A DNA stretch of 47,775 nucleotides, taken from the sequence record PZ445409.1. One strand, given 5' to 3'. This DNA comes from a phage. Below, piece by piece: positions 15,830 through 47,170 of this stretch. Below the pieces are notes generated by a model, which saw nothing but the letters and a program-made list of their open reading frames with translations, had not been told where the DNA came from and did no database searches. Position 1 is the stretch's first letter; every line of letters starts with the position of its first letter. The translations under genes were made by a program, and so were the position numbers.

Positions 15830-15851
15830 CCCGCCTTGCGCGGGTTTTTTT
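15830..15851 (+). terminator. intrinsic terminator before J gene
   Basis: Hairpin cccgccttgcgcggg + T7. Confidence 0.6.
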
Positions 15852-15900
15852 GTGCATTTATAATGTGCAAACCAAGAAACAGCACAAAAGGTTAAAAGTC

Positions 15901-18900
15901 ATGGCTAAATATATGATAAGCGGCAGTAAGGGCGGAAGCAAAAAGCCATACGTGCCAAAAGAGATGGAAGATAACCTGATCTCGATAAACAAGATTAAAG
16001 TTTTGCTGGCTGTATCTGATGGCGAGTGCGATCCAGATTTCACGTTGCGTGATCTTTATCTTGATGATGTTCCGGTTATTGCCAGCGATGGCACTGTTAA
16101 CTATGAGGGTGTAACGGCTGAATATAGACCAGGCACACAGACGCAAGATTACATCCAGGGGTTTACTGACACATCAAGCGAGGTGACAGTTTCGCGAGAT
16201 ATTACAACAGACAATCCCTATATTATATCTGTAACAAATAAAAATCTTTCTGCAATCAGAATCAAGATTCTGATGCCAGTTGGCATAAAACAGGAGGATA
16301 ACGGCGATCTTGTTGGTGTAAGGGTTCAATATGCTGTAGATATGGCTGTTGATGGCGGTTCTTATAACGAGGTTATGAGAGATGTAATTGACGGCAAGAC
16401 AAGATCAGGGTATGACCGCAGCAGAAGGATTGATCTTCCTAAGTTTGATGAGCGCGTTTTAATCAGAGTCAAGCGACTGACTCCAGATAGCACATCTTCA
16501 AAGGTTACTGATAAAATCAAACTGCAAAGTTACGCTGAGGTTGTGGATGCAAAATTCCGTTATCCTCTGACTGGCCTTGTATTCGTAGAATTTGACAGCG
16601 AATTGTTTCCTACACAAATCCCTAACATTTCTATAAAAAAGAAATGGAAGATTATTAATGTGCCAAGCAACTACGATCCAATATCAAGAGAATATCACGG
16701 GTCATGGGATGGGACTTTTAAAAAAGCGTGGTCAAATAATCCTGCATGGGTTCTTTATGATCTGGTAACTAATCAGCGTTATGGACTTGACCAGCGAGAG
16801 TTAGGAATACAGATCGACAAGTGGAGCTTATACGAGGCTGGTGTTTACTGTGATCAGAAAGTTCCAGACGGTAAGGGCGGTACAGAGCCTCGCTACCTAT
16901 GCGATGTGGTGATCCAGAATCAGGTTGAGGCTTATCAGCTAATCCGTGACATTTGCTCAATCTTTCGCGGAATGAGCTTTTGGAATGGTGAGAGCTTATC
17001 AATCGTGATTGATAAGCCGCGCGATCCATCATACGTGTTTACTAATGAAAACGTCATCAACGGTGATTTTCAGTACACAACCGCAAGCGAAAAAAGCATG
17101 TACACGCAGTGTAACGTGACGTTTGACGACGAACAAAACATGTATCAGCAGGACGTAGAGGGGGTTTTTGATACTGAGGCGGCATTACGATTTGGATACA
17201 ATCCAACAAGCATTACAGCGATCGGGTGTACACGCAGGAGCGAAGCGAATCGTCGCGGTCGGTGGGTTTTGAAAACAAACCTTAGAAGCACTACTGTAAA
17301 CTTTGCTACCGGACTAGAGGGGATGATTCCATCAATAGGTGATGTGATTGCTATCGCTGATAATTTTCAGAGTAGCAACCTAACGTTAAACCTATCGGGC
17401 CGAGTGATGGAAGTTTCAGGATTGCAGGTTTTCGTTCCGTTTAAGGTTGATGCTCGTCCTGGTGATTTTATTATCATCAACAAGCCGGACGGCAAGCCAG
17501 TTAAGCGCACGATCTCAAAGGTTAGCGCAGACGGAAAAACCATTGAGTTAAATATTGGATTTGGTTTTGATGTTAAGCCTGATACTGTTTTTGCGATTGA
17601 CCGTACTGACCTTGCGTTGCAGCAATACGTTGTGACAACTATCAGCAAGGGTGATGACGAAAATGAGTTTACCTATTCAATAACGGCTGTAGAGTACGAT
17701 CCGAACAAATACGACGAGATTGATTATGGAGTAAACATTGATGACAGGCCGACTTCAATTGTTCAGCCTGACGTAATGGCAGCGCCTGAGAACGTGCAAA
17801 TCTCATCTTATTCTCGCGTCGTGCAGGGTGTCAGCGTTGAGACTATGGTTGTGTCGTGGGAAAAAGTGCCTTATGCGTCACTGTATGAAATGCAATGGCG
17901 AAAAGGTGATGGCAACTGGCTAAATACGCCGCGCACAGCGAACAAAGAGACGGAAGTAGAAGGGATTTATTCAGGGAACTATCAAGTAAGGGTCAGATCT
18001 GTTTCAGCTTCCGGCAGTACATCAGCATGGTCGAAGATTGCAACAGCTTCCCTGACTGGTAAAGTTGGCGAGCCAGGCGCGCCAGTTAACTTAACCGCAT
18101 CAGATAATGAAGTTTTCGGCATTCGTATTAAATGGGGCATGCCAGAAGGAAGCGGAGACACGGCCTACATTGAGCTTCACCAGTCGCCAGACGGAACGGT
18201 TGAAAACTCAAGCCTGTTAACGCTGATCCCATACCCGCAATATGAATACTGGCACAGTACACTACCAGCGGGTCAGGTTGTCTGGTATAGAATCCGCAGC
18301 GTTGACAGAATCGGCAACGTTTCTAGCTGGACTGATTTTGTTCGTGGCATGGCATCAGATGATGTTGAATCTGTTTTAGGAGATATTCTTGATAAGATTT
18401 TTGATAGCGAAGCAGGGCAAGAAATCAAGGAGAACGCCATCGAAAGCGCGAACAAGATCAAAGACCAGGCGCAGGCAATAATCCAGAACGCTTTGGCGAT
18501 TGACGCTAACTTGAAATGGACGCGAGTACAGAACGGAAAGCGAAAGGCTGAATATGGTCATGCTGTTCAGTTGATCGCAAATGAGACTGAGGCGCGAGTA
18601 ACTCAAATCGAAGAATTGAGGGCTTCAATTGATGGCGAGATAACATCAAGCATCAAGACAGTGCAGGAGGCAATCGCCACTGAATCAGAGACACGAGCAA
18701 CTCAAATTCAGCAGCTTGATTCTAAATTCACAAAAGAAATTGACGGCGTGCGCAAGGACACTTCTGCAAGCATTAGCGATGTAAGGCAGACAATCACTAA
18801 CGAGTCAGAAGCGCGAGCGCAAGCGGTACAACAGCTTGATGCAAAATTCACCAAAGAGATTAATGATCTCAATGATGCAATCAAGGTTGACGTTGAGGCC

Positions 18901-19479
18901 AGCATTTCAGAAGTGAGACAAGCTATCGCCAACGAGGAGGAAGCACGAGTACAAGCTGATCAGGCATTAACAGCACGATTTGGAGACGTTGAATCTGCAT
19001 TGGTTGAAAAGTTGGATTCTTGGGCGAGCGTTGATTCAGTTGGTGCTAAGTACGCTATGAAACTTGGCCTTACTTACAAAGGCCAGCAGTACAGCGCAGG
19101 AATGGTAATGCAGCTTTCGCAGGGTTCATCCGGTCTTATCTCGCAAATTTTGTTTGATGCGAACAGGTTCGCCATTATGACTAGCTCTACTGGAGGGACT
19201 TTCACTTTGCCTTTCGTGGTTGAGAATAATCAGGTTTTCATTAATAGTCTTTTGGTGAAGAACGGTTCAATCACTAATGCGATGATCGGTAATGTTATTC
19301 AGTCGAATAACTTTGTTGCTGATCAGCAGGGGTGGAGGCTTGATAAGAATGGGCGATTTGAGAACTACGGATCTACGTCTGGAGAAGGTGCAATGAAGTT
19401 GACCAATGAAACGATAAGCGTACGAGACGCAAACGGGCAATTGCGCGTTCAGATTGGCAGGCTGACTGGTACTTGGTAA
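15901..19479 (+). CDS. central tail fibre / host specificity protein (J-like)
   Basis: 1192-aa ORF from ATG 15901 (track start 15850 is an alternative start); largest tail-tip gene after the M-L-K-I set. Confidence 0.8.
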   Translation: MAKYMISGSKGGSKKPYVPKEMEDNLISINKIKVLLAVSDGECDPDFTLRDLYLDDVPVIASDGTVNYEGVTAEYRPGTQTQDYIQGFTDTSSEVTVSRDITTDNPYIISVTNKNLSAIRIKILMPVGIKQEDNGDLVGVRVQYAVDMAVDGGSYNEVMRDVIDGKTRSGYDRSRRIDLPKFDERVLIRVKRLTPDSTSSKVTDKIKLQSYAEVVDAKFRYPLTGLVFVEFDSELFPTQIPNISIKKKWKIINVPSNYDPISREYHGSWDGTFKKAWSNNPAWVLYDLVTNQRYGLDQRELGIQIDKWSLYEAGVYCDQKVPDGKGGTEPRYLCDVVIQNQVEAYQLIRDICSIFRGMSFWNGESLSIVIDKPRDPSYVFTNENVINGDFQYTTASEKSMYTQCNVTFDDEQNMYQQDVEGVFDTEAALRFGYNPTSITAIGCTRRSEANRRGRWVLKTNLRSTTVNFATGLEGMIPSIGDVIAIADNFQSSNLTLNLSGRVMEVSGLQVFVPFKVDARPGDFIIINKPDGKPVKRTISKVSADGKTIELNIGFGFDVKPDTVFAIDRTDLALQQYVVTTISKGDDENEFTYSITAVEYDPNKYDEIDYGVNIDDRPTSIVQPDVMAAPENVQISSYSRVVQGVSVETMVVSWEKVPYASLYEMQWRKGDGNWLNTPRTANKETEVEGIYSGNYQVRVRSVSASGSTSAWSKIATASLTGKVGEPGAPVNLTASDNEVFGIRIKWGMPEGSGDTAYIELHQSPDGTVENSSLLTLIPYPQYEYWHSTLPAGQVVWYRIRSVDRIGNVSSWTDFVRGMASDDVESVLGDILDKIFDSEAGQEIKENAIESANKIKDQAQAIIQNALAIDANLKWTRVQNGKRKAEYGHAVQLIANETEARVTQIEELRASIDGEITSSIKTVQEAIATESETRATQIQQLDSKFTKEIDGVRKDTSASISDVRQTITNESEARAQAVQQLDAKFTKEINDLNDAIKVDVEASISEVRQAIANEEEARVQADQALTARFGDVESALVEKLDSWASVDSVGAKYAMKLGLTYKGQQYSAGMVMQLSQGSSGLISQILFDANRFAIMTSSTGGTFTLPFVVENNQVFINSLLVKNGSITNAMIGNVIQSNNFVADQQGWRLDKNGRFENYGSTSGEGAMKLTNETISVRDANGQLRVQIGRLTGTW

Positions 19480-19522
19480 AATCAAGGCGGGGCGTTTGCC
19501 CCGCATTTGTGGAGGTTTAATA

Positions 19523-19834
19523 ATGGCTGAATATGGAATCTCAACATGGGATGCAAACGGAAAATATAATAACTACGGCATCAAGCCATCAGTTGTTATT
19601 GGAATGTTCTCACTTTCTACAGGGCAGGTTTCTGGTAGTTATACATTTAACGTGCCTTCTGGATACAAGCTATCATACGCAATATCCCTTGATGAAGGGA
19701 GCAGCGCCGGAGATAGGAGAAAAATCACAATAGCAGGCAATACAGTTACGATCTCAAATGCTGGATCATCAATAGGCGCTGACATATGGCCTACAACAAA
19801 ATGCGATGTTATTGTTTTTTTGGAGACTGCATAA
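19523..19834 (+). CDS. hypothetical tail-associated protein
   Basis: 104-aa ORF with GGAGG RBS; N-terminus (MAEYG..) resembles that of the next ORF. Confidence 0.5.
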   Translation: MAEYGISTWDANGKYNNYGIKPSVVIGMFSLSTGQVSGSYTFNVPSGYKLSYAISLDEGSSAGDRRKITIAGNTVTISNAGSSIGADIWPTTKCDVIVFLETA

Positions 19835-20428
19835 ATGGCGCAATACGGAGCAAGTTTAAAATTATCAAATGGGAATGTTTTTGTTACTCCTGATGCAAGT
19901 CCTTTGTGTCTTTATAGGCGCATGACGCTAACGTCAAATTACCAATCAGTGACAATTCCATCCGGTAAGCCTGTCATGTATTTTTCACGTGACGCTGACG
20001 GAATATCAATGGCGTTTAGAAATTCAGCAACGGAATTGTTAGTGGGGCCAGGTAATGGAGTTGGTTACATTTTTACTATATTTACACCTTCTCTTCCTAA
20101 GTATGGGATGGGTATCTGGAATGCAGAAGGGCAATTGATATTGACCAACGAATCAAGGATTTTAACAGATCTTGTTAAGGTTGGCACGCCTGGGAATCAA
20201 GGAGGAATATATATAGATCAGACTCTTACAGGTTCTTATGCAATTGCTCCTCAATTGCTTGGCGCTATTGTAGGGATGGGATCTGCATCAATTTATGCGG
20301 CAACAAAATATAACGGAAGCACGACAAGAATTTATGGTAAGGTAGCAGGTCAGCCGCCAGGCGCTCAAGGTTATATTAATCATGGAAATATAATAACAGC
20401 AATCAAGACTGATATTTACGACCAATAA
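19835..20428 (+). CDS. hypothetical tail-associated protein
   Basis: 197-aa ORF starting right at upstream stop; Gly-rich; followed by bidirectional terminator. Confidence 0.5.
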   Translation: MAQYGASLKLSNGNVFVTPDASPLCLYRRMTLTSNYQSVTIPSGKPVMYFSRDADGISMAFRNSATELLVGPGNGVGYIFTIFTPSLPKYGMGIWNAEGQLILTNESRILTDLVKVGTPGNQGGIYIDQTLTGSYAIAPQLLGAIVGMGSASIYAATKYNGSTTRIYGKVAGQPPGAQGYINHGNIITAIKTDIYDQ

Positions 20429-20452
20429 AAAAAGGGGCTTACGCCCCTTTAT
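20427..20452. terminator. bidirectional intrinsic terminator between tail genes and cor
   Basis: A-run, hairpin ggggcttacgcccc, T-run. Confidence 0.6.
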
Positions 20453-20457
20453 CATTG

Positions 20458-20685
20458 TTACAAACTGCAATCAGCGTTTTTGAAGTTATCGACGCTTACC
20501 CACTGAAAATTAAACGGATAGCCAGCCTTAACCAGAGTCTGATCACCAACTCTTTTAGCACCAAAAATAGCGACAGAATATTCCATTCCACTATTTTCAT
20601 AAGTGGCTGTGCATTCACGTTTAGGCATATTTGCGCAACCAGTCAGAGCAACGGCGGCAATTAAAACGGCGATTAATTTTTTCAT
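20458..20685 (-). CDS. cor: Cor-like superinfection exclusion lipoprotein
   Basis: 75-aa ORF from ATG 20685 (AAGGAG RBS 8 nt upstream; track start 20691 is TTG); signal peptide with lipobox LTGC; about 55-aa mature protein; placement after tail genes as in T1/phi80/N15. Confidence 0.6.
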   Translation of the reverse strand: MKKLIAVLIAAVALTGCANMPKRECTATYENSGMEYSVAIFGAKRVGDQTLVKAGYPFNFQWVSVDNFKNADCSL

Positions 20686-20716
20686 CTTCAATACTCCTTA
20701 GTTGTTGTTGACTGTA

Positions 20717-20758
20717 ACTATACACGATCCGACAAGCTGGGTTTAGCAAAAAGTGCTA
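20717..20758 (-). promoter_or_regulatory. phage promoter unit upstream of cor (variant element + TATAGT)
   Basis: Minus strand TAGCACTTTTTGCTAAAC then 18 nt then TATAGT; AAGGAG RBS and cor ATG follow. Confidence 0.5.
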
Positions 20759-27542: not shown

Positions 27543-28019
27543 TTAGCTATTCGTGCTGTTATCACCTTTGTAGAATCTTCCGCCTGGTTCGTAGTCTGAA
27601 TTTTTGACTACGCGCAACATTTCGTATTTGTCGCAACGGGTAGTAAGAGGCTTGCCGTTAGAATCAAACCGCAGATCTGGACGACAAAACGAGGCGCGGT
27701 ATCCTTTGCATCCATTATATTTGTAGTCGTTATGCACCTTTTGTGCTCCAGCGGCTGAAATCATACCACGCTTTCGCCATTGGTTAACAACTTGCTGAGA
27801 TACGCGCAGACGTCGAGCCATAGCAGGAACGCCGCCGTAATACTCGATCAGAATGTCAAGGCGAGATTTCAGGCTTGCTTTTACCTCATCTCGCAGGATA
27901 AGAAATCCGGTTCGATGTTTTCGTGGCTTTTTGTCTTTACCTCGTCGCGTTCCGTTGTTACCGTTAATAGTGCGCTTGTCGATCTCACCAGTAGACACTG
28001 CAATTCGTGCATCTTTCAT
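27543..28019 (-). CDS. XRE/Cro-like HTH DNA-binding protein
   Basis: 158-aa ORF with GAGGTGA RBS; helix-turn-helix GGVPAMARRLRVSQQVVNQWRKRG; Cys-rich C-terminal part; inverted copy of the conserved 19-bp element in its 5-prime UTR. Confidence 0.55.
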   Translation of the reverse strand: MKDARIAVSTGEIDKRTINGNNGTRRGKDKKPRKHRTGFLILRDEVKASLKSRLDILIEYYGGVPAMARRLRVSQQVVNQWRKRGMISAAGAQKVHNDYKYNGCKGYRASFCRPDLRFDSNGKPLTTRCDKYEMLRVVKNSDYEPGGRFYKGDNSTNS

Positions 28020-33651: not shown

Positions 33652-34142
33652 TGAGCATCAAGAACAGGGTGGCGGCGGCGGCCTTTGGCGTTGCGGTTGC
33701 CTTGACTTCTCCACTTCTTGAAGAGATCGAAGGGGTAAGATACAAGCCATACAAAGATATTGCGGGAGTATGGACGGTTTGCGCAGGAATCACCGGACCA
33801 GATGTTATCCTGGGGAAAACGTACACTAAAAAAGAGTGTGATGCTTTGTTGGCTAAGCATATCCAGGTTGCTAAAAAGGAAGTTGACAAGCAGGTTAAGG
33901 TTGACATTCCTGATAGTATGCGTGCAGCAATGTACTCATTCACTTACAATGCAGGTGTGGGAGCTTTCAGAAATTCAACAATGCTGAAACTCATCAACCA
34001 GGGGAAATTAAACGAGGCTTGCGATCAGCTTTATCGTTGGACGTATTACCATAACCCCAAAACAGGAAAGCGCGAGAAGTCTAAAGGCTTACTTAACAGG
34101 CGCAAGGTCGAATACAAATATTGCACAATGGATCTGAAATGA
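33651..34142 (+). CDS. SAR endolysin (T4 lysozyme-like muramidase)
   Basis: 163-aa ORF; weakly hydrophobic Ala/Gly-rich N-terminal signal-anchor-release segment; E..D..T catalytic spacing (EEIEG..YKD..GVWT). Confidence 0.7.
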
Positions 34143-34534
34143 TGAAGAAATTTTTATTTACACCAATCGCAATGGCGGTGATCTTGTCTGGATGTTCAAG
34201 CGTTACGCCACTGACCGGATTAATCGGCAGTAAGCCGGAAATAACAGCACAGGCTGGCGCGGAGAACGTGAAGCAGACAGTTGGCATTACAGCAAAGCAG
34301 GACGCCAGCACAAAACAGGAAACCACAATAAAGGAATCTGCGGTTGACAAGGTGGACACGTCCAGCAAGAAGGATTTCACAACATCAACCATTCAGGCCA
34401 ATACCATCAAGGCAGACAAAATTCAGGTCGTGCAGGGTAATAACGGCAGATGGTACGATCCAATAATCATATGCATGGTTGTGTTCATTGTGCTGATTTG
34501 TCTTTACTGGAGGGAAAAGAAAAAGGAGGCTTAA
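34139..34534 (+). CDS. unimolecular spanin (u-spanin)
   Basis: 131-aa ORF overlapping endolysin stop; N-terminal lipoprotein signal with lipobox LSGC plus C-terminal transmembrane helix ([16 protein letters not shown]); T1 gp11-like architecture. Confidence 0.7.
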
Positions 34535-37693: not shown

Positions 37694-38377
37694 TTTTGAG
37701 TTTGCCTCAAATACGGCGCGAGCAAATCCTCGCGGAGTGAGGGAGCGTAGTTGCTTTGTTCTGGCAGACTTACCTCCTAAAAACTTCCAACCCCAAAAGA
37801 ACATTACTCCCTCATCATTGCGTAACGGCTTGCGTTCCGGTTCGGTAAATCCGTTGCCGCACCAGATAGCCGTCCTTTTTGTGTAGCCATCCTTTAGCGG
37901 CATCTTGGGGTGAAAAGATCCATCGGATTCGTCCAGGTAGTTACCAAAATCGCGCGGATTGAAATAAAAATCAGGCTTGCGCCATAGCGTTGATAGTCGG
38001 CCTACAGGATTCTCAGCCATCCAGGGAACACCGAAATGATTCCCGACAGTTTCAACCATGATTGCATTTTTGAGCGCGATCTGAATATCATCATCGCTTC
38101 GCACGTGCTTGCTTCCTGATTGGGCAAACATGGTGCAGTCTGGAAATCCAAATACAATATCTGGTTTTGGAATATCCATCTTACTGATTCTTTCAATGAA
38201 ATTTTCATCAATCCACATATTAACATAATGCAGATTTTCATTCTTCATCTTGATGAAATATTCGCCGTGATTTCCCTCATCAGCGTTAAAGCAATAGCAT
38301 TGATAGCCAGCCTTCGCATATTCAAGCAGCATGATTCCAGATCCATCAAACATTGAGTAAGCAACTTTATTTCCCAT
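37691..38377 (-). CDS. DNA C5-cytosine methyltransferase-like protein lacking a target-recognition domain
   Basis: 228-aa ORF from ATG 38377 (track start 38437 is TTG); motif I SMFDGSG, motif IV-like DIVFGFPDC, motif VI-like MAENPVG, motif X-like RSLTPRGFARA; no region long enough for a TRD; TAG stop is first triplet of promoter element. Confidence 0.55.
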   Translation of the reverse strand: MGNKVAYSMFDGSGIMLLEYAKAGYQCYCFNADEGNHGEYFIKMKNENLHYVNMWIDENFIERISKMDIPKPDIVFGFPDCTMFAQSGSKHVRSDDDIQIALKNAIMVETVGNHFGVPWMAENPVGRLSTLWRKPDFYFNPRDFGNYLDESDGSFHPKMPLKDGYTKRTAIWCGNGFTEPERKPLRNDEGVMFFWGWKFLGGKSARTKQLRSLTPRGFARAVFEANSK

Positions 38378-38894
38378 GATTTTTATGATACCCCAATTCA
38401 TTCTCGGCTTTACGTTTTGCGGCAACAGCATCCCCAAAACTGGAGAAACAACCTATATAAATCCTACTTCCTCGCTTTCCGCTTCCAACCCTTACAACCC
38501 ATTTGCCATGTTTATTTTTATGCACACCTGGTATGCCACTTGTATTGTTTTTCTGCTTTGATGTGTTTCGCATATTTCCTTTGTGATCTTTTAACTCAAA
38601 GTTTATTGCTCTGTTATCAGTCGTAATGTGATTTAAGTGATCAACCTCCATTCCTTCCGGTATAGGCCCATAGTGCATTTCATAGCATATTCTATGAACT
38701 TTCAGGTTGTAACGTTTTCCGTTTACAGTAAGTGCGGTTTCTAAATATCTGCCACCACTACCCAAAGAGCCAACCTCATTACCAGCATTGCAAGCATTCC
38801 ATTGTTTAACTCTTGATTGGTGAATATCTTTTCTTTCTTTCCAGAACAGCTTTCCAGTTTCTGGATTGTATGTAAAGTAATCGTGCCAATTCAT
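38367..38894 (-). CDS. HNH homing endonuclease with AP2-like DNA-binding domain
   Basis: 175-aa ORF with GAGGTGA RBS; HNH motif EVDHLNHITTDNRAIN; C-terminal GVHKNKHGKWVVRVGSGKRGSRIYIGCFSSF AP2-type fold signature; 3-prime end overlaps start of methyltransferase-like gene. Confidence 0.7.
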   Translation of the reverse strand: MNWHDYFTYNPETGKLFWKERKDIHQSRVKQWNACNAGNEVGSLGSGGRYLETALTVNGKRYNLKVHRICYEMHYGPIPEGMEVDHLNHITTDNRAINFELKDHKGNMRNTSKQKNNTSGIPGVHKNKHGKWVVRVGSGKRGSRIYIGCFSSFGDAVAAKRKAENELGYHKNHGK

Positions 38895-38902
38895 TCATCA
38901 CC

Positions 38903-39127
38903 TCAAAACGGAAAACAGCGAGGACAGCTAGGATCGAAATCGCATCCACAATCATTAACAATCATAGTTGGATCTGCAAATATTGCGCTTGATTCAAGAT
39001 TCATATCCATATCACCTAGCGCCTCATCAAGAGTCTTAATTTTATATGCCACTTCAAGCGCCGCCTCTTTATTTAGTCCAGCATCTTCTGCCATTTGAAG
39101 TCGCTCAAAAAAACCGTCTTGACTCAT
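38903..39127 (-). CDS. hypothetical acidic protein with C-terminal Cys cluster
   Basis: 74-aa ORF; ATG overlaps stop of upstream small membrane ORF; ends CGCDFDPSCPRCFPF. Confidence 0.5.
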   Translation of the reverse strand: MSQDGFFERLQMAEDAGLNKEAALEVAYKIKTLDEALGDMDMNLESSAIFADPTMIVNDCGCDFDPSCPRCFPF

Positions 39128-39240
39128 CGCATAATCCCCTTAATAACAGCCAAGATAATAGCCAGGCCAGCAGCAGTAACCAAAAATCCAACCGCGCCAA
39201 TAATCGAATAAAAAAAGAAATCAATAGCTTTATCTATCAT
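39124..39240 (-). CDS. small membrane protein (38 aa, not in ORF track)
   Basis: ATG 39240 with GAGGTGG RBS right after a minus-strand terminator; single hydrophobic helix; TGA overlaps next ATG. Confidence 0.4.
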   Translation of the reverse strand: MIDKAIDFFFYSIIGAVGFLVTAAGLAIILAVIKGIMR

Positions 39241-41108: not shown

Positions 41109-41143
41109 TTGCTATCTCCTGAGCGGTTTGTTTTGATGTGTGT

Positions 41144-41186
41144 AATGTACCCGATCAGGTGGCCTGAGTTTTAACAAAAAGTGCGA
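41144..41186 (-). promoter_or_regulatory. phage promoter unit (variant element + TACATT), first leftward promoter
   Basis: Minus strand TCGCACTTTTTGTTAAAAC + 18 nt + TACATT + ACACACATC leader; AGGAG RBS; ATG 41108. Confidence 0.6.
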
Positions 41187-41218
41187 TTTGACGGTTAGCG
41201 CCAGGATTGTGATAGAAA

Positions 41219-41306
41219 TAATCAAAAGTAATCATTCGTAATCAAATCACGTCAAAATGATGATTGCCTTTGCAAATTTGATGAGAAAAGTAATCACGTT
41301 TAATCA
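41219..41306. repeat. 10-bp-phased GTAATCA/TAATCA iteron-like repeats
   Basis: TAATCA at 41219, 41229, 41239 and at 41291, 41301 (exact 10-bp spacing within each set); partial inverted copy TGATTG at 41261. Confidence 0.5.
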
Positions 41307-41726
41307 TTGGTTGCAGTGGAGATAGTGAAACCTTCCCCTCTTGCCTCACTTTTCCGCCTGGCTGTCAGTGGTTGTTATGTTCCGTTTTCGCCTGTTCTTT
41401 TGTTGACCTTCCGCAAAATACGATAACAAAAAATAACAAACAATACCTATATAATACATTGAAAAATAAGGATTATTTATTTATATGTATCTATATATTC
41501 TCTTTTGTTATCTTGGTTATTGTGGTATTTGGTGGGGGTATATAGTTTTTGTGTATCTATATGTGTGTATGGGTATGTAGGGGCATATATATCTATATGG
41601 CACTTTCCGCGATAAAACTTCGATAACAAGCAATGATAACATTGATTTATAAGGAAAAATAACGCCCATATTGTTATTGTGCCACCATATAAAATTGATA
41701 AAACACGCGGGAACAAGAAAAAACAG
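41307..41726. repeat. AT-rich regulatory region B, paralogous to region A
   Basis: TTCCGC..CGATAAC at 41409-41427 and 41605-41627; GTATCTATAT blocks at 41487, 41553, 41589; T/G-rich core 41499-41545; GGGAACAAGAAAAA at 41709-41722. Confidence 0.5.
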
Positions 41727-41755
41727 TTGACACATTAAATAGCATTATTGATAAT
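41727..41755 (+). promoter_or_regulatory. near-consensus sigma70 promoter (TTGACA-17-GATAAT with TG) for rightward operon
   Basis: -35 at 41727-41732, extended -10 TGATAAT at 41749-41755; preceded by GGGAACAAGAAAAA element. Confidence 0.6.
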
Positions 41756-41783
41756 GCCCACACCTAACAACCAGGAGGTAGAA

Positions 41784-42248
41784 ATGAGCGAGCAATCATT
41801 CACTGACACGCTGCGCCGTGCCGCTATTATGCTTGCCAATGGCGAGGAAGAGACGATCAAGATTCCTGACGCGTATTTGCAGGTCCACATGTTCGGCAAG
41901 AAGTCGGCAAGCAATCCGGCGGCCTACATTCGCCAGATCATGAGTCGAGTGCCAGAAGTCGCCGAGCGGGGGCGTGTATCCGTTACACGTGGCGTTTACG
42001 GGCCGGAAGATGAAAACTTCGGTAGCACTTTCTACGAGGTGCGGATTGTTGAAGGCCGTCGCAAGGTTTACAACAAAGAGGCACTGGAAAGGGCAGTGCG
42101 CCAGGCTAAGCGCAAGGTTGCAGAGGCGATCATTGATATGTCACCAAACCTGGCAAACTATGCGCCGGAAGAGTATGAAACATTATCAAAGGCCGTCGCT
42201 GACTTTCACGCGATGATCAAAAAAACTTTCCTGGAGGATGAGCAATGA
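41784..42248 (+). CDS. hypothetical protein (first gene of rightward operon)
   Basis: 154-aa ORF from ATG 41784 with AGGAGG RBS, downstream of near-consensus sigma70 promoter 41727-41755. Confidence 0.55.
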   Translation: MSEQSFTDTLRRAAIMLANGEEETIKIPDAYLQVHMFGKKSASNPAAYIRQIMSRVPEVAERGRVSVTRGVYGPEDENFGSTFYEVRIVEGRRKVYNKEALERAVRQAKRKVAEAIIDMSPNLANYAPEEYETLSKAVADFHAMIKKTFLEDEQ

Positions 42249-42505
42249 AAAAGGCATTAATCGGCGTTTTGGTGGCAATGACACTCCTGACCGGATGCGA
42301 AAAGGCATCAGAATCAACGGTTGTCGTAGGCGTGGAGTCAGATTTCAAAGTCGGTCGCCTGTTCACTGTTGACGGATGCACAGCATACAGATTCTATGAT
42401 AACGGTCGCGCGATCTATTACACCAGTTGCAAAGGCGCAACGGATAGCACGTACAACAGCGGAAAGAACGTAATGCACCAGCAAGTCACAACAGATATTA
42501 AATAG
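42245..42505 (+). CDS. putative lipoprotein
   Basis: 86-aa ORF, ATGA overlap; signal peptide with lipobox LLTGC; small Cys-containing mature domain. Confidence 0.6.
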   Translation: MKKALIGVLVAMTLLTGCEKASESTVVVGVESDFKVGRLFTVDGCTAYRFYDNGRAIYYTSCKGATDSTYNSGKNVMHQQVTTDIK

Positions 42506-42545
42506 CACTTTTTGCAAAAACAGATTGTCGGGCTTGCGGTATAGT
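42503..42545 (+). promoter_or_regulatory. phage promoter unit (variant element + TATAGT)
   Basis: TAGCACTTTTTGCAAAAAC begins with lipoprotein stop TAG; hexamer 42540-42545. Confidence 0.55.
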
Positions 42546-42576: not shown

Positions 42577-42840
42577 ATGGCTAACAAGATCGAATTTTTT
42601 AAAGCGGTAGACATTATTGATGGCGCGCCTAGCTTCTTTGCCATCCATTCTATTGACGGCAAGGATATTGGGTACAACGTTATCCGTCGAGATGGAATCT
42701 CAAAACTTAGTGACCTGGTAGGTCATGTTGTGGCAAACGGGAAATGTGCATGGCCCGATTCGCCACGAGAGCCACGCCGCCGCGACATGGTAGAGCCTGT
42801 TCTGCTTTACACGCTGGTAGTAGAAGGAGAAAATAAATGA
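42577..42840 (+). CDS. hypothetical protein
   Basis: 87-aa ORF with GAGGA RBS after promoter unit 42503-42545. Confidence 0.5.
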   Translation: MANKIEFFKAVDIIDGAPSFFAIHSIDGKDIGYNVIRRDGISKLSDLVGHVVANGKCAWPDSPREPRRRDMVEPVLLYTLVVEGENK

Positions 42841-43022
42841 TTTGGTTACTTGCTTTTTTGGTTGTTTTTCTTTACATTTCAGGCTTGTTTACGTTCCGCG
42901 CGTTGGTGAAATATTCTTACACGACAGACAAAGACGATAAAATCGTTCTCGCTTTCTGGTTTGTTTGGGTGTGGTTAGCAATTTACGAGATCATCAGAGA
43001 CAAACAGAAATTTGAGTGGTGA
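42837..43022 (+). CDS. small membrane protein
   Basis: 61-aa ORF, ATGA overlap; two hydrophobic helices. Confidence 0.5.
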   Translation: MIWLLAFLVVFLYISGLFTFRALVKYSYTTDKDDKIVLAFWFVWVWLAIYEIIRDKQKFEW

Positions 43023-43215: not shown

Positions 43216-43806
43216 ATGAAACGAGACATTATCATCCTTAATGGGCCGCCAGGTTGCGGGAAGGACACTATTGCAGCTTACCTAACGGGCCATCGTTACC
43301 CTGCTGTCAAGGCGTCATTCAAACAGCCGATGTTCGATATTGCTTTTTCTATGCTGGGCGTGTACCGATACGATGAATTTATGGACCTGTACAACGACCG
43401 AGAGCAAAAAGAAAAGCCTCAAGTTATCTTAGGCGGCAAGTCACCTCGACAATTCATGATCTGGATTAGCGAGGATGTAATGAAGCCAGTTTTTGGGGAT
43501 CACTATTTCGGGCGTCGAATGGTTGAAGAGATTCACGAGATGTACCGAGATTTGGCGGTTGTGATCAGTGATGGCGGATTCCCCGAAGAAATCAAGCCGC
43601 TGGTTAAGGCAGGGCATGAAGTGCATATTTGCCGATTGCATCGCGACGGCTTCACGTTTGCTGGCGATTCGAGAGACTACATTGACCTGAGCGGTTATCA
43701 CTATCGAATCCATCACTATGATTTCCACTTGCAGGACGGTAAGCCGGAGCTGGCTGTAAGCGAGATCGTCAATGCAGTCAAATGGAAGCACACACAGATT
43801 AAATAG
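43216..43806 (+). CDS. P-loop kinase, deoxynucleoside monophosphate kinase-like
   Basis: 196-aa ORF; N-terminal ILNGPPGCGKDT P-loop as in phage dNMP kinases; TAG stop is first triplet of promoter element 43804-43846. Confidence 0.5.
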   Translation: MKRDIIILNGPPGCGKDTIAAYLTGHRYPAVKASFKQPMFDIAFSMLGVYRYDEFMDLYNDREQKEKPQVILGGKSPRQFMIWISEDVMKPVFGDHYFGRRMVEEIHEMYRDLAVVISDGGFPEEIKPLVKAGHEVHICRLHRDGFTFAGDSRDYIDLSGYHYRIHHYDFHLQDGKPELAVSEIVNAVKWKHTQIK

Positions 43807-44356: not shown

Positions 44357-44620
44357 ATGGTTTTTAACGCATTGAAACGACTGTTTAAGCCGGAATACCG
44401 GATCGTTGCTTGCACAGAATGCAAGATTTATTATCTGCAACGCCGCCGCGTTATTAGTGGGGATTGGGAATATCTGACGGATGATGCTTTCGGCTTTTGG
44501 GCTATGGAGTTCAATAGCTACAGCGAAGCGCTCGAATACGCTAAAAAGTTGCACAAGTTCAGACCTTACAAGCTGCGTTTGCTGGTTGTCAAAAAGTGCG
44601 ACGTATGGGATCACGAATGA
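44357..44620 (+). CDS. hypothetical protein
   Basis: 87-aa ORF with GAGGG RBS; hairpin then TATTAT 38 nt upstream. Confidence 0.5.
   Translation: MVFNALKRLFKPEYRIVACTECKIYYLQRRRVISGDWEYLTDDAFGFWAMEFNSYSEALEYAKKLHKFRPYKLRLLVVKKCDVWDHE
44586..44601 (+). promoter_or_regulatory. inverted copy of conserved element 15 nt before ATG 44617
   Basis: TTGTCAAAAAGTGCGA lies inside the 3-prime end of ORF 44357-44620. Confidence 0.35.
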
Positions 44621-44793
44621 AAAGAGTAATTATCACCTTTATTGCCCTTATCGCTGGTTCCCACTTGGCATATGGGTATAGCGGCATTGTTGAGTCAATC
44701 GGCGGAATGATTATCTTCCTAGCTGGCGCATGTTACGGCTACGGCGATGGATTTAAAAACGGCAAGCGTTACATCCTGACCGGGAAGAAATAA
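44617..44793 (+). CDS. small membrane protein
   Basis: 58-aa ORF from ATG 44617 (ATGA overlap); two Gly-rich hydrophobic helices. Confidence 0.45.
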   Translation: MKRVIITFIALIAGSHLAYGYSGIVESIGGMIIFLAGACYGYGDGFKNGKRYILTGKK

Positions 44794-46807: not shown

Positions 46808-46949
46808 TTGCCAATCATGCAAACAGGAATATGAATGCGTAGTTGATGCTCTTGATGAACTGGAAGCAGTAGCAAAAGCAAAAGAGCAATCGGGCGCTAA
46901 TCCTGAAACACATCAATTTTCAATTAACCTTGTGAGGGCTTTACAATGA
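46764..46949 (+). CDS. hypothetical small protein (start uncertain)
   Basis: 61-aa ORF in frame with track ORF 46683-46949; GAGG RBS before ATG 46764; overlaps upstream gene; CxxC...C motif. Confidence 0.35.
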   Translation: MNYKVKMKIRRMGRNCQSCKQEYECVVDALDELEAVAKAKEQSGANPETHQFSINLVRALQ

Positions 46950-47170
46950 TCGCATTATCTTTCTGCATTGGTTTTATCATGGCTATCATTATCTTTTCCG
47001 TTGTCATGCGCTTTGCTTATAAGTTCGTTATTAATAAAGGCTGGTACGCTTCTGCAATCTGGAGCGAAAAACAAAAGAAATGGCTTGTACGTGGTCAATA
47101 CCTGATGATCGGAAGCAAGATCCTAAATTCCATTCGAGCCAAAGATGGAAAAGTAAAATATACAGCTTAA
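46946..47170 (+). CDS. small membrane protein
   Basis: 74-aa ORF, ATGA overlap; N-terminal hydrophobic helix; followed by terminator 47177-47199. Confidence 0.5.
   Translation: MIALSFCIGFIMAIIIFSVVMRFAYKFVINKGWYASAIWSEKQKKWLVRGQYLMIGSKILNSIRAKDGKVKYTA

What the first reader, a model, noticed from the sequence alone, without database searches (positions are those of the whole stretch)
42245..42505. Second lipoprotein gene (early operon) in addition to Cor: candidate receptor-masking or superinfection-exclusion factor
Besides Cor (20458-20685, lipobox LTGC), the rightward early operon encodes an 86-aa lipoprotein (lipobox LLTGC) followed by several small membrane proteins (42837-43022, 44617-44793, 46946-47170; plus a 38-aa membrane peptide at 39124-39240 on the other strand). 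Early-expressed lipoproteins in T5-like (Llp) and T1-like (Cor) phages block the phage receptor. Two distinct lipoproteins suggest protection against more than one receptor or phage type.
Basis: partly seen in the sequence, partly recalled or inferred. Interest (0 to 1): 0.45.

Follow-up and report, generated by a model that had tools for sequence, protein, structure and literature searches.

The report
Early phage lipoprotein of unknown function
The gene is real and encodes a small exported lipoprotein of a large, uncharacterised phage family (DUF4884); it is unrelated to the known receptor-blocking lipoproteins and does not track the phage's receptor, so its job in the cell envelope is still open.

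Summary
The 86-aa ORF at 42245-42505 (+) is a real, well-conserved gene. It has a textbook lipoprotein signal (MKK, hydrophobic stretch, LTGC), a strong ribosome-binding site, and an ATGA overlap with the upstream gene. The window is phage PeterMerian (Bas05, FhuA-dependent); the protein is bas05_0063, annotated "hypothetical".

It belongs to Pfam DUF4884. This is a large phage-borne family: 1,224 clusters at 50% identity, in phages of Escherichia, Serratia, Pseudomonas, Xanthomonas and Pantoea and in gut metagenome phage contigs. Almost all members are roughly 75-120-aa lipoproteins with the core LFTxDGCTVYRFxD...YFTNCxG. Two cysteines covary and pair in the model, which points to a periplasmic disulfide.

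It is not a Cor/Llp/Rtp45 relative:
- Only the signal peptide aligns with them, and no fold match was found.
- It lies 21 kb from the receptor-binding locus.
- The same allele occurs in FhuA- and BtuB-dependent phages.

It is the second gene of a two-gene unit behind a conserved near-consensus sigma-70 promoter, so early expression is plausible. My best guess is a periplasmic binder of a conserved envelope component that gives receptor-independent exclusion or host takeover. No test here addresses that function.

The window has three lipoproteins, not two: Cor, the u-spanin and this one.

The parts
41727..41755 (+). Sigma-70-type promoter-like site TTGACA-17-GATAAT (11/12) preceded by an A-tract. 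It heads the two-gene unit.
   Evidence: The same element sits at the same distance from the start codon in tiwna and JLBYU10, and a TTGACA-18-GATAAT in damhaus.
41784..42248 (+). First gene of the unit, a DUF7174 protein of 154 aa from ATG 41784. The mechanical ORF begins at TTG 41748, inside the promoter.
   Evidence: Pfam PF23796, 99 bits. The tiwna annotation uses the equivalent ATG. The family is in 234 Drexlerviridae-type records.
42245..42505 (+). DUF4884 lipoprotein gene (bas05_0063), 86 aa. Signal peptide is residues 1-17 (42245-42295) and lipobox LTGC is 42287-42298. The lipidated Cys18 codon is 42296-42298. The disulfide pair is Cys45 (42377-42379) and Cys62 (42428-42430).
42505..42545 (+). 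Copy of the genome-wide repeated intergenic element GCACTTTTTGYWAAAAC (42505-42521), followed by inverted repeat GGGCTT/AAGCCC around a TATAGT (42540-42545). It marks the end of the two-gene unit and the start of the next one, and it is also a mosaic junction.
   Evidence: Megablast breakpoints fall at window positions ~42501 and ~42521.
20458..20691 (-). Cor, the true receptor-blocking lipoprotein of this phage. Listed for comparison; it is not part of the unit.
   Evidence: NCBIfam NF047972, 71 bits against a cutoff of 31. PHROG 1119. It has its own copy of the repeated element at 20740-20756.
34142..34534 (+). Third lipoprotein of the window: a unimolecular spanin with lipobox ILSGC and a C-terminal transmembrane segment. 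Listed for comparison.
   Evidence: PHROG 1804 Rz-like spanin, E 1.4e-47.

Best explanation
The gene encodes a precursor that is exported by Sec, lipidated at Cys18 and cleaved by signal peptidase II. With Glu at +2 it is most probably sorted by Lol to the inner leaflet of the outer membrane.

The mature protein is about 68 aa. It is a small antiparallel beta-meander on a short tether, clamped by a Cys45-Cys62 disulfide, so it works in the periplasm. It is made from a host-type promoter as the second gene of the first rightward transcription unit, which suggests expression at the very start of infection.

The central hairpins are conserved in phages of very different hosts and tail types, and the allele does not follow the phage's terminal receptor. 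I therefore infer that it binds a conserved component of the cell envelope rather than FhuA. The likely effect is to make the infected cell refractory to further phage or colicin attack at a step other than recognition of this phage's receptor, or otherwise to condition the envelope for the infection.

Shown here: the gene is real, it carries a lipoprotein signal, it belongs to DUF4884, the two cysteines covary, it is not related to Cor/Llp/Rtp45, its allele is uncoupled from the receptor, and a promoter lies upstream.

Inferred: outer-membrane sorting, early timing, and binding to a conserved envelope target.

Guessed: that the outcome is exclusion or takeover.
For: Lipoprotein signal and translational coupling.

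Family:
- All 37 close homologues carry PF16225.
- The exhaustive profile search finds 1,224 clusters at E <= 1e-3; nearly all of the 150 listed are roughly 75-120-aa proteins with a lipobox.
- Homologues in Pseudomonas phage Dolphis, Serratia phage MTx and Xanthomonas jumbo phage BUDD are also lipoproteins.

Disulfide:
- Cys45 and Cys62 are both present in at least 158 sequences. Both are replaced together (I/R, V/A, I/A) in about 21, and no genuine single losses were seen.
- In the AF2 model (pLDDT 79.9) they are cross-strand partners of hairpin 45-52/55-62.

Selection: dN/dS is 0.07-0.10 between close alleles.

Promoter: TTGACA-17-GATAAT, conserved in relatives.

Contexts elsewhere are always early or replication regions of phages. 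These are the prophage early-left region near the integrase, a position next to rIIA/rIIB, and a position between primase-helicase and methylase.

Uncoupling from the receptor.

Accessory nature: the slot after DUF7174 holds unrelated non-secreted proteins in damhaus, TLS and a Klebsiella phage.
Against: - No experiment or homology ties any DUF4884 member to a function. The literature search found only annotation tables.
- No conserved neighbour gives a hint.
- No structural relative was found.
- Phages of the same host carry two alleles only about 45% identical in the mature part, plus chimeras with swapped C-terminal tails. That fits a variable partner better than a strictly conserved one.
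- Lys at +3 is conserved in 83% of one aligned set of homologues and 59% of a broader one. It could be a sorting or function signal that I cannot interpret, so outer- versus inner-membrane location is uncertain.
- The Pfam score of this protein (24.8 bits) is below the gathering cutoff of 30.
Confidence: 0.4

Rival explanations
1. It is a Cor/Llp-like receptor jammer for a second outer-membrane protein. It would bind the periplasmic face of another phage receptor (for example BtuB, LptD, TolC or an OmpA-type porin) and allosterically close it to competitor phages.
For: - It has the same size class, lipid anchor, disulfide-stabilised beta-rich build and likely early expression as Llp, Cor and Rtp45 (PMC9586334, PMC12685063).
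- The mature part is exchanged as a module at the lipobox, and the tail is swapped independently. That is typical of specificity-determining proteins.
Against: - There is no sequence or fold relation to Cor, Rtp45 or any PDB entry.
- It is not at the RBP locus.
- The most conserved part of the protein is shared with phages of Pseudomonas and Xanthomonas and with gut metagenome phage contigs, whose receptors differ.
- BtuB-using phages that carry their own RBP-linked exclusion gene have the same allele as this FhuA phage.
Confidence: 0.2
2. It is a helper for the phage's own cycle rather than a competition factor. It would bind a periplasmic or envelope component (peptidoglycan enzymes, Lpp/Pal/Tol, the envelope-stress sensor RcsF, proteases) to stabilise the infected envelope, tune lysis timing or prevent stress responses.
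For: - The conserved core across very different hosts suggests a universal diderm target.
- It occurs in early regions next to other membrane-directed early genes such as rIIA/rIIB.
- It is absent from complete E. coli genomes at the DNA level and from plasmids at the protein level, so it does not look like a lysogen-expressed moron in E. coli.
Against: - The gene is dispensable. Relatives carry unrelated cytoplasmic proteins in the same slot.
- The allelic diversity within one host is not expected for a housekeeping helper.
Confidence: 0.2
3. It is a counter-defence protein that neutralises an envelope-located or membrane-anchored host defence or abortive-infection sensor from the periplasmic side.
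For: It is an accessory gene in a variable slot, probably expressed early, with alleles that recombine. This is the usual signature of arms-race genes.
Against: - There is no hit in PADLOC models.
- No association with any defence-related neighbour was seen.
- Most known defence sensors are cytoplasmic and out of reach of a periplasmic lipoprotein.
Confidence: 0.1
4. It is a chance ORF or a decaying remnant with no function.
For: It is small, annotated only as hypothetical, and missing from many Drexlerviridae (for example no hit in T1 itself).
Against: - dN/dS is 0.07-0.10 at dS about 0.5.
- It is in 119 phage records and 1,224 clusters.
- It has an SD sequence, translational coupling and covarying cysteines.
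- Lipoprotein-signal ORFs are 45-fold over shuffles.
Confidence: 0.01

Closest known systems
Cor (T1, phi80, N15, HK022; NCBIfam NF047972, PHROG 1119). A copy is present in this window at 20458-20691 (-).
   Same: It is a small phage lipoprotein with a signal peptidase II signal, a mature part of about 58-68 aa, cysteines for a disulfide, a periplasmic site of action, and no role in virion formation.
   Different: - There is no homology beyond the signal peptide.
- Cor sits next to J/RBP and tracks FhuA use, which DUF4884 does not.
- Cor's cysteines lie near the two ends of the mature chain, as in Llp. Here the disulfide clamps one internal hairpin.
- Cor has its own copy of the phage's repeated promoter-like element, whereas DUF4884 is behind a sigma-70 consensus promoter.
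Llp of phage T5 (PDB 8A60; PMC9586334)
   Same: It is an early-expressed 61-aa periplasmic lipoprotein that acts by binding a host envelope protein.
   Different: - Llp is encoded directly downstream of the RBP pb5 and jams the FhuA plug.
- The disulfide topology differs: Cys11-Cys58 constrains the termini in Llp.
Rtp45 of phage Rtp (LptDE-binding exclusion lipoprotein, PDB 9RPS; PMC12685063)
   Same: It is a ~6-kDa lipoprotein of a Drexlerviridae phage that binds an essential, conserved outer-membrane machine from the periplasm. This is a precedent for targets other than TonB-dependent transporters.
   Different: - Rtp carries both Rtp45 (at the RBP locus, 27687-27917) and a DUF4884 homologue, rtp3 (1120-1383). 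They are therefore separate functions.
- Only the signal peptide aligns.
T4 Sp (spackle) and Imm, P22 SieA, Streptococcus phage TP-J34 Ltp: exclusion at the DNA-entry step
   Same: These are envelope-located phage proteins made early (or from the prophage) that block superinfection independently of receptor recognition. This is the functional class I consider most likely. That assessment rests on my own knowledge of these systems.
   Different: No sequence relation was detected in any library searched. Sp is a soluble periplasmic protein, Imm and SieA are inner-membrane proteins, and Ltp is from a Gram-positive host.
Pfam DUF4884 (PF16225), PHROG 6360
   Same: This is the family the protein belongs to: lipoproteins of about 90 aa with the LFTxDGCTVYRF...YFTNC core.
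   Different: The family has no assigned function. The Pfam model covers only 49 positions, and this protein scores 24.8 bits against a cutoff of 30.

Membership tests
Bacterial lipoprotein precursor (signal peptidase II substrate) | Positively charged n-region, uncharged hydrophobic h-region, lipobox [LVI][ASTVI][GAS]C within about 15-30 residues of the start | tested here: met
   The sequence is MKK / ALIGVLVAMTL / L-T-G-C18. Only 3 such ORFs occur in the window, against 0.07 in shuffles.
Bacterial lipoprotein precursor (signal peptidase II substrate) | Actual diacylglyceryl modification and globomycin-sensitive cleavage | not testable with these tools
   This needs labelling or globomycin experiments.
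Pfam DUF4884 (PF16225) | Score at or above the Pfam gathering threshold (30 bits) | tested here: not met
   The score is 24.8 bits, E 1.9e-5, over residues 32-61. The precomputed Pfam hits (listed at E <= 1e-5, a laxer criterion than the gathering score) nevertheless assign PF16225.11 to every homologue, including 98%-identical ones, and UniRef names the cluster DUF4884.
Pfam DUF4884 (PF16225) | Shared conserved core and reciprocal profile similarity with family members | tested here: met
   A profile of the close homologues retrieves 1,224 clusters with the same core. A wider profile scores this protein 101.9 bits. Invariant or near-invariant positions are L39, F40, G44, C45, Y48, R49, F50, D52, Y58 and C62.
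Cor / Llp-type receptor-blocking exclusion lipoproteins | Sequence homology to Cor (NF047972 / PHROG 1119) or Llp | tested here: not met
   hhalign aligns only the 23 signal-peptide columns. NCBIfam and PHROG give no Cor hit for this protein.
Cor / Llp-type receptor-blocking exclusion lipoproteins | Gene adjacent to the receptor-binding protein / J locus | tested here: not met
   The gene is at 42245, whereas J/RBP/Cor are at about 15850-20691. In Rtp the corresponding positions are 1120 and 27687.
Cor / Llp-type receptor-blocking exclusion lipoproteins | Allele covaries with the phage's terminal receptor | tested here: not met
   Alleles at least 90% identical occur in BtuB phages (Bas04, Bas06) and FhuA phages (Bas05, Bas07). 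BabyEgg has Cor at 98.7% but DUF4884 at 42%. Eleven phages have the allele at >=89% identity and no Cor above about 56%.
Cor / Llp-type receptor-blocking exclusion lipoproteins | Expression alone blocks adsorption of the cognate phage | not testable with these tools
   This needs plating and adsorption assays.
Rtp45-type LptDE-binding exclusion lipoprotein | Sequence or fold similarity to Rtp45 | tested here: not met
   hhalign aligns only 20 signal-peptide columns, probability 45%. The PDB fold searches gave no significant match of any kind.
Spanins (o-spanin / u-spanin) | Lipoprotein encoded in the lysis cassette, embedded in or next to an i-spanin gene or carrying a C-terminal transmembrane segment | tested here: not met
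   It has no C-terminal TM segment and is not near the holin/endolysin genes. The window's spanin is 34142-34534.

The most novel reading that the evidence does not exclude
DUF4884 proteins would be a third class of phage exclusion lipoproteins, independent of the phage's own receptor. They would be made in the first minutes of infection by phages of many Gram-negative lineages. They would dock from the periplasm onto a conserved envelope machine (for instance Lpt, Bam, Tol-Pal or the TonB system) and so close the cell to whole groups of competing phages and colicins at once. The variable tether and C-terminal hairpin would tune the interaction.
Probability: 0.2. Interest if true: 0.7.

Novelty: new member of a known kind. 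Interest (0 to 1): 0.35.

Why it matters
DUF4884 is one of the larger phage-borne families of exported proteins without any assigned function, with more than 1,200 clusters at 50% identity. Members occur in virulent siphoviruses, myoviruses, jumbo phages and prophages.

The member studied here sits in a phage of the public BASEL collection (Bas05). That phage has a defined receptor and close relatives that carry a different allele or a different gene in the same slot, so the function is directly testable with existing strains.

If the protein turns out to block infection or condition the envelope through a conserved target, it would broaden the picture of how virulent phages protect an infected cell. 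At present that picture rests on receptor-specific lipoproteins encoded next to the receptor-binding protein. If it does nothing measurable, the finding is an ordinary accessory gene.

Tried and rejected
1. Homology to Cor, Rtp45 or Llp. Only signal peptides align. NCBIfam hits are all signal-peptide matches far below cutoff.

2. Fold relatives.
- The first AF2 model (20 sequences, pLDDT 63) was too poor to use.
- A PDB sequence search found nothing.

3. A TonB-box mimic. Residues 23-29, ESTVVVG, resemble the ETxVV(T)A boxes of TonB-dependent transporters. I rejected this because those positions are not conserved in the family.

4. A conserved gene neighbour.
- None was found across 48 loci.
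- The DUF7174 partner is confined to Drexlerviridae.

5. Presence elsewhere in E. coli. There was no match in 5,426 complete genomes at the DNA level or in 72,556 plasmids at the protein level.

6. Defence-system models (PADLOC): no hit.

7. Literature. 'DUF4884' occurs in two papers, both only in tables. Nothing was found on a second lipoprotein in T1-like phages. The Rtp genome paper is not held.

8. The genome-contig scan needed a narrow pattern and returned only 7 loci, so it says little about spread in bacteria.

9. Longer 'fusion' members in the representative library look like over-extended start codons in GC-rich genomes, so I did not use them.
Full report
**What is there**

The ORF at 42245-42505 (+) exists as described. 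It encodes MKKALIGVLVAMTLLTGCEKASESTVVVGVESDFKVGRLFTVDGCTAYRFYDNGRAIYYTSCKGATDSTYNSGKNVMHQQVTTDIK. It has a two-lysine n-region, an uncharged 11-residue hydrophobic stretch and the lipobox L-T-G-C18. GGAGGA lies 7 nt before the ATG, and the ATG overlaps the stop codon of the upstream gene as ATGA.

A rule-based scan of all possible starts in the window finds only three genes with such a signal. These are Cor (20458-20691, minus strand), a unimolecular spanin (34142-34534, lipobox ILSGC plus a C-terminal membrane segment, PHROG 1804) and this gene. Sixty dinucleotide shuffles of the window gave a mean of 0.07 such ORFs.

**Where the window comes from**

- The DNA is a Warwickvirus (Drexlerviridae, Tempevirinae), closest to atuna, tiwna and vB_EcoS-95 over this stretch.
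- An exact-sequence look-up identifies the protein as QXV84062.1, [quoted passage not shown], on a 47,775-bp contig. That is the length of the window.
- The BASEL supplementary table lists PeterMerian (Bas05) as a 47,775-bp Warwickvirus whose terminal receptor is FhuA.
- The record itself is not in the searchable phage collection.

**Family**

- Pfam gives DUF4884 (PF16225) at 24.8 bits, below the 30-bit cutoff. PHROGs gives family 6360, function unknown.
- All 37 close relatives in the large protein collection carry a precomputed PF16225 hit. Several GenBank records call the protein "DUF4884 domain-containing protein".
- tblastn finds it in 119 phage records. These are Warwickvirus, Hanrivervirus, Rtp (gene rtp3, 1120-1383), the JeanPiccard group, a Pseudomonas phage, Pantoea, Serratia and Erwinia phages, and a 199-kb Xanthomonas phage.
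- The Pseudomonas, Serratia and Xanthomonas homologues each have their own lipobox.
- An exhaustive profile search of 1.84 billion representatives returns 1,224 clusters at E <= 1e-3 and 231 at E <= 1e-10.
- Nearly all of the 150 listed are roughly 75-120-aa proteins with an N-terminal lipobox and the core F-x-V-x-(K/R)-L-F-T-x-D-G-C-T-V-Y-R-F-x-D ... Y-F-T-N-C-x-G.

**Disulfide and fold**

Across the retrieved sequences, Cys45 and Cys62 are both present in at least 158. In about 21 both are replaced together (I/R, V/A, I/A). The few apparent single losses were register errors of my pattern.

An AlphaFold2 model built on 89 diverse homologues has mean pLDDT 79.9, and about 90 over residues 21-60. 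It shows six antiparallel strands in a meander. Cys45 and Cys62 are the cross-strand partners at the open end of hairpin 45-52/55-62. Many relatives have a second pair, C-G-K-x-C, around the last turn; this protein lacks it. A structural disulfide implies an oxidising compartment, which fits export.

The fold has no significant relative:
- Foldseek against 350,542 PDB chains gave a best E of 0.75.
- A profile search of PDB sequences found nothing.

**Selection and mosaicism**

Between close alleles dN/dS is 0.07-0.10 at dS about 0.5. Between distant ones it is about 0.2. The gene is therefore maintained by purifying selection.

Phages of the same host carry two main alleles. One is the 86-aa form found here. 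The other is a 90-aa form about 45% identical.

A DNA alignment shows three recombination patterns:
- JLBYU10 is nearly identical to the window through the upstream gene and the signal peptide, and diverges immediately after the Cys-Glu codons.
- PGN590 has a different upstream gene but the same mature part.
- A metagenomic relative (L014) has the window-type core joined to the JLBYU10-type C-terminal tail.

Megablast breakpoints fall at the same places, at window positions ~42300, ~42501 and ~42521. The mature domain and its tail thus behave as exchangeable modules.

**Transcription context**

The region 41109-41783 is a long AT-rich divergent control region. A near-consensus host-type promoter, TTGACA-17-GATAAT, lies at 41727-41755 behind an A-tract. 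It ends 28 nt before the ATG at 41784 of the upstream gene, a DUF7174 protein (Pfam, 99 bits).

The same element is at the same distance in tiwna and JLBYU10. Damhaus has TTGACA-18-GATAAT. By eye, similar but weaker -35/-10-like hexamers are visible upstream in TLS, a Klebsiella phage and Rtp; the pattern search did not flag them.

Immediately after the lipoprotein stop codon comes a copy of a repeated element, GCACTTTTTGYWAAAAC. It occurs 14 times in the window against 1.0 expected and is always oriented with the local genes. It is followed by about 18 nt (often a GC-rich inverted repeat), a TATAAT-like hexamer, a Shine-Dalgarno sequence and a start codon. Cor has its own copy at 20740-20756.

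The DUF7174/DUF4884 pair is therefore a two-gene unit between a sigma-70 consensus promoter and the first of these elements. I infer early transcription by unmodified host polymerase. No expression data were available.

**Is it a Cor/Llp-type receptor blocker?**

I tested the features that define that class.

(a) Homology.
- The gene at 20458-20691 is Cor by NCBIfam (NF047972, 71 bits, cutoff 31) and PHROG 1119. The 42245 gene is not.
- Profile comparison with Cor and with Rtp45 aligns only 23 and 20 signal-peptide columns.

(b) Position.
- Characterised exclusion lipoproteins of small siphoviruses and T5 are encoded at the receptor-binding locus next to J or pb5 (PMC11990801; PMC12685063; PMC9586334).
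- This gene is 21 kb away.
- Rtp has both Rtp45 at that locus and a DUF4884 gene at the other end of the genome.

(c) Receptor tracking.
- The allele is 97.7% identical in FritzSarasin and 90.7% in KarlJaspers, both BtuB users. It is 90.7% identical in JakobBernoulli, a FhuA user like this phage.
- Of 21 phages with this allele at >= 88% identity, 10 have a window-type Cor. The other 11 have none above about 56% identity.
- BabyEgg, SLUR29, B1.2 and morffagbaw have a window-type Cor (85-99%) but the other DUF4884 allele (42-47%).

(d) Disulfide topology. Cor and Llp have cysteines near both ends of the mature chain (Cys11-Cys58 in Llp). Here the bond clamps an internal hairpin.

Masking of this phage's own receptor is therefore not its job; Cor does that. 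Masking of some other receptor cannot be tested here.

**Other context**

- No gene is consistently next to DUF4884 across 48 loci from phage genomes, IMG/VR contigs and bacterial genomes. Neighbours in the Pseudomonas, Serratia and Xanthomonas phages have no shared Pfam family.
- DUF7174 is found in 234 phage records, about twice as many as DUF4884.
- In damhaus (which has a window-type Cor), TLS and a Klebsiella phage, the gene after DUF7174 encodes an unrelated small protein without a signal peptide. The position is a variable accessory slot.
- In Pseudomonas genomes the gene lies in prophage early-left regions, among exonuclease, SSB and methylase genes and a few genes from the integrase.
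- In an 80-kb phage contig it follows rIIA/rIIB. In gut-metagenome phage contigs it lies between a primase-helicase and a methylase.
- It is absent from 5,426 complete E. coli genomes at the DNA level and from 72,556 plasmids at the protein level. PADLOC models give nothing.
- The literature holds no functional statement on DUF4884.

**What it most likely does**

The following are shown:
- It is a real gene with a lipoprotein signal.
- It is a member of DUF4884.
- It has a covarying, modelled disulfide.
- It is unrelated to known exclusion lipoproteins.
- Its allele is uncoupled from the receptor.
- It is an accessory gene in a variable slot.
- A host-type promoter lies upstream.

The following are inferred:
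- Export, lipidation and Lol sorting to the outer membrane. Glu at +2 is not the E. coli inner-membrane retention signal, by my knowledge of the +2 rule. The conserved Lys at +3 leaves some doubt.
- Early expression.
- Action by binding a periplasm-exposed partner.

The central hairpins are conserved from coliphages to phages of Pseudomonas and Xanthomonas and to gut-metagenome phage contigs. I therefore favour a conserved envelope component as the target. The variable tether and C-terminal hairpin would tune the interaction.

The biological outcome I consider most likely is receptor-independent protection of the infected cell, by blocking entry of other phages or colicins, or else conditioning of the envelope. 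My rough weights are:
- about 0.4 for an exclusion or takeover role of this kind;
- 0.2 for jamming of a second specific receptor;
- 0.2 for a helper role in the phage's own cycle;
- 0.1 for counter-defence;
- the remainder unknown.

One specific idea was that residues 23-29 (ESTVVVG) mimic a TonB box. I dropped it because those positions are not conserved.

**Verdict**

Its analogy is not supported, and for the phage's own receptor it is contradicted.

The gene is a new member of a known but uncharacterised family and is already annotated as hypothetical or DUF4884 in public records. Its interest is moderate. The family is large, phage-specific and functionally blank, and this member sits in a publicly available phage with well-characterised relatives. 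That makes the question easy to test, but nothing here is surprising to a specialist.

Noticed in passing
window 1569, 6190, 9948, 20740, 26472, 28034, 30523, 31594, 34834, 37675, 40084, 41168, 42505, 45126 (17-nt sites); degenerate copy at 43806: A repeated intergenic element, (a)ATAGCACTTTTTGTTAAAAC, has 14 copies at <=3 mismatches against 1.0 expected. It is always oriented with the local genes. It is followed by about 18 nt (often a GC-rich inverted repeat), then a TATAAT-like hexamer, about 25 nt, an SD sequence and a start codon. The TTGTTA-to-(-10) spacing is 22 nt, which is not a canonical sigma-70 geometry. It could be a phage-specific promoter class, or a combined terminator and promoter. 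The copy after the lipoprotein gene is conserved in tiwna, JLBYU10, PGN590 and an IMG/VR relative.
   Followed up: partly
window 34142-34534 (+): This is a third lipoprotein gene. It is a unimolecular spanin with lipobox ILSGC and a C-terminal transmembrane segment (PHROG 1804, E 1.4e-47), like T1 gp11.
   Followed up: partly
window 41109-41783: This is an unusually long (~670 bp) AT-rich divergent non-coding region between the leftward and rightward blocks of small genes. It contains short direct repeats (AAAGTAATCA x3 at 41214-41306; ATAACAA-type repeats at 41415-41449 and 41615-41663) and a run of TATATA/TGTGTA-rich sequence at 41440-41600. It may be a control region, an origin or a packaging-related site.
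   Followed up: no
window 41784-42248 (+) and loci L050-L052: The DUF7174 protein is the conserved first gene behind the sigma-70 promoter in 234 Drexlerviridae-type records. The gene directly after it is a variable slot: DUF4884 lipoprotein alleles in some phages, and unrelated ~60-82-aa cytoplasmic-looking proteins in damhaus, TLS and a Klebsiella phage.
   Followed up: partly
window 42296-42304 and 42440-42505; alignment A5: Recombination junctions fall exactly at the lipobox cysteine and again before the C-terminal hairpin of the lipoprotein. This produces chimeric proteins, for example the IMG/VR contig in L014 and protein P0012.
   Followed up: partly
window 38367-38894 (-): A 175-aa ORF has an HNH/AP2-like sequence (…VHRICYEMHYGPIPEGMEVDHLNHITTDNR…). 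It is probably a homing endonuclease inserted in the leftward block. I recognised it by eye only.
   Followed up: no
phage records MG0656xx ('Campylobacter phage A16a, A112a, C4 …'): Several records labelled Campylobacter jejuni phages carry near-identical Warwickvirus/Hanrivervirus genes (DUF4884 at 85-90%, Cor at 90%). They look like coliphage sequences deposited under a Campylobacter host label.
   Followed up: no
L056 6072-7267 (JGI 3300033120 contig, 80 kb): In an unrelated large phage contig the DUF4884 gene lies directly downstream of rIIA-like and rIIB genes, which are membrane-associated early genes of T4-type phages.
   Followed up: no
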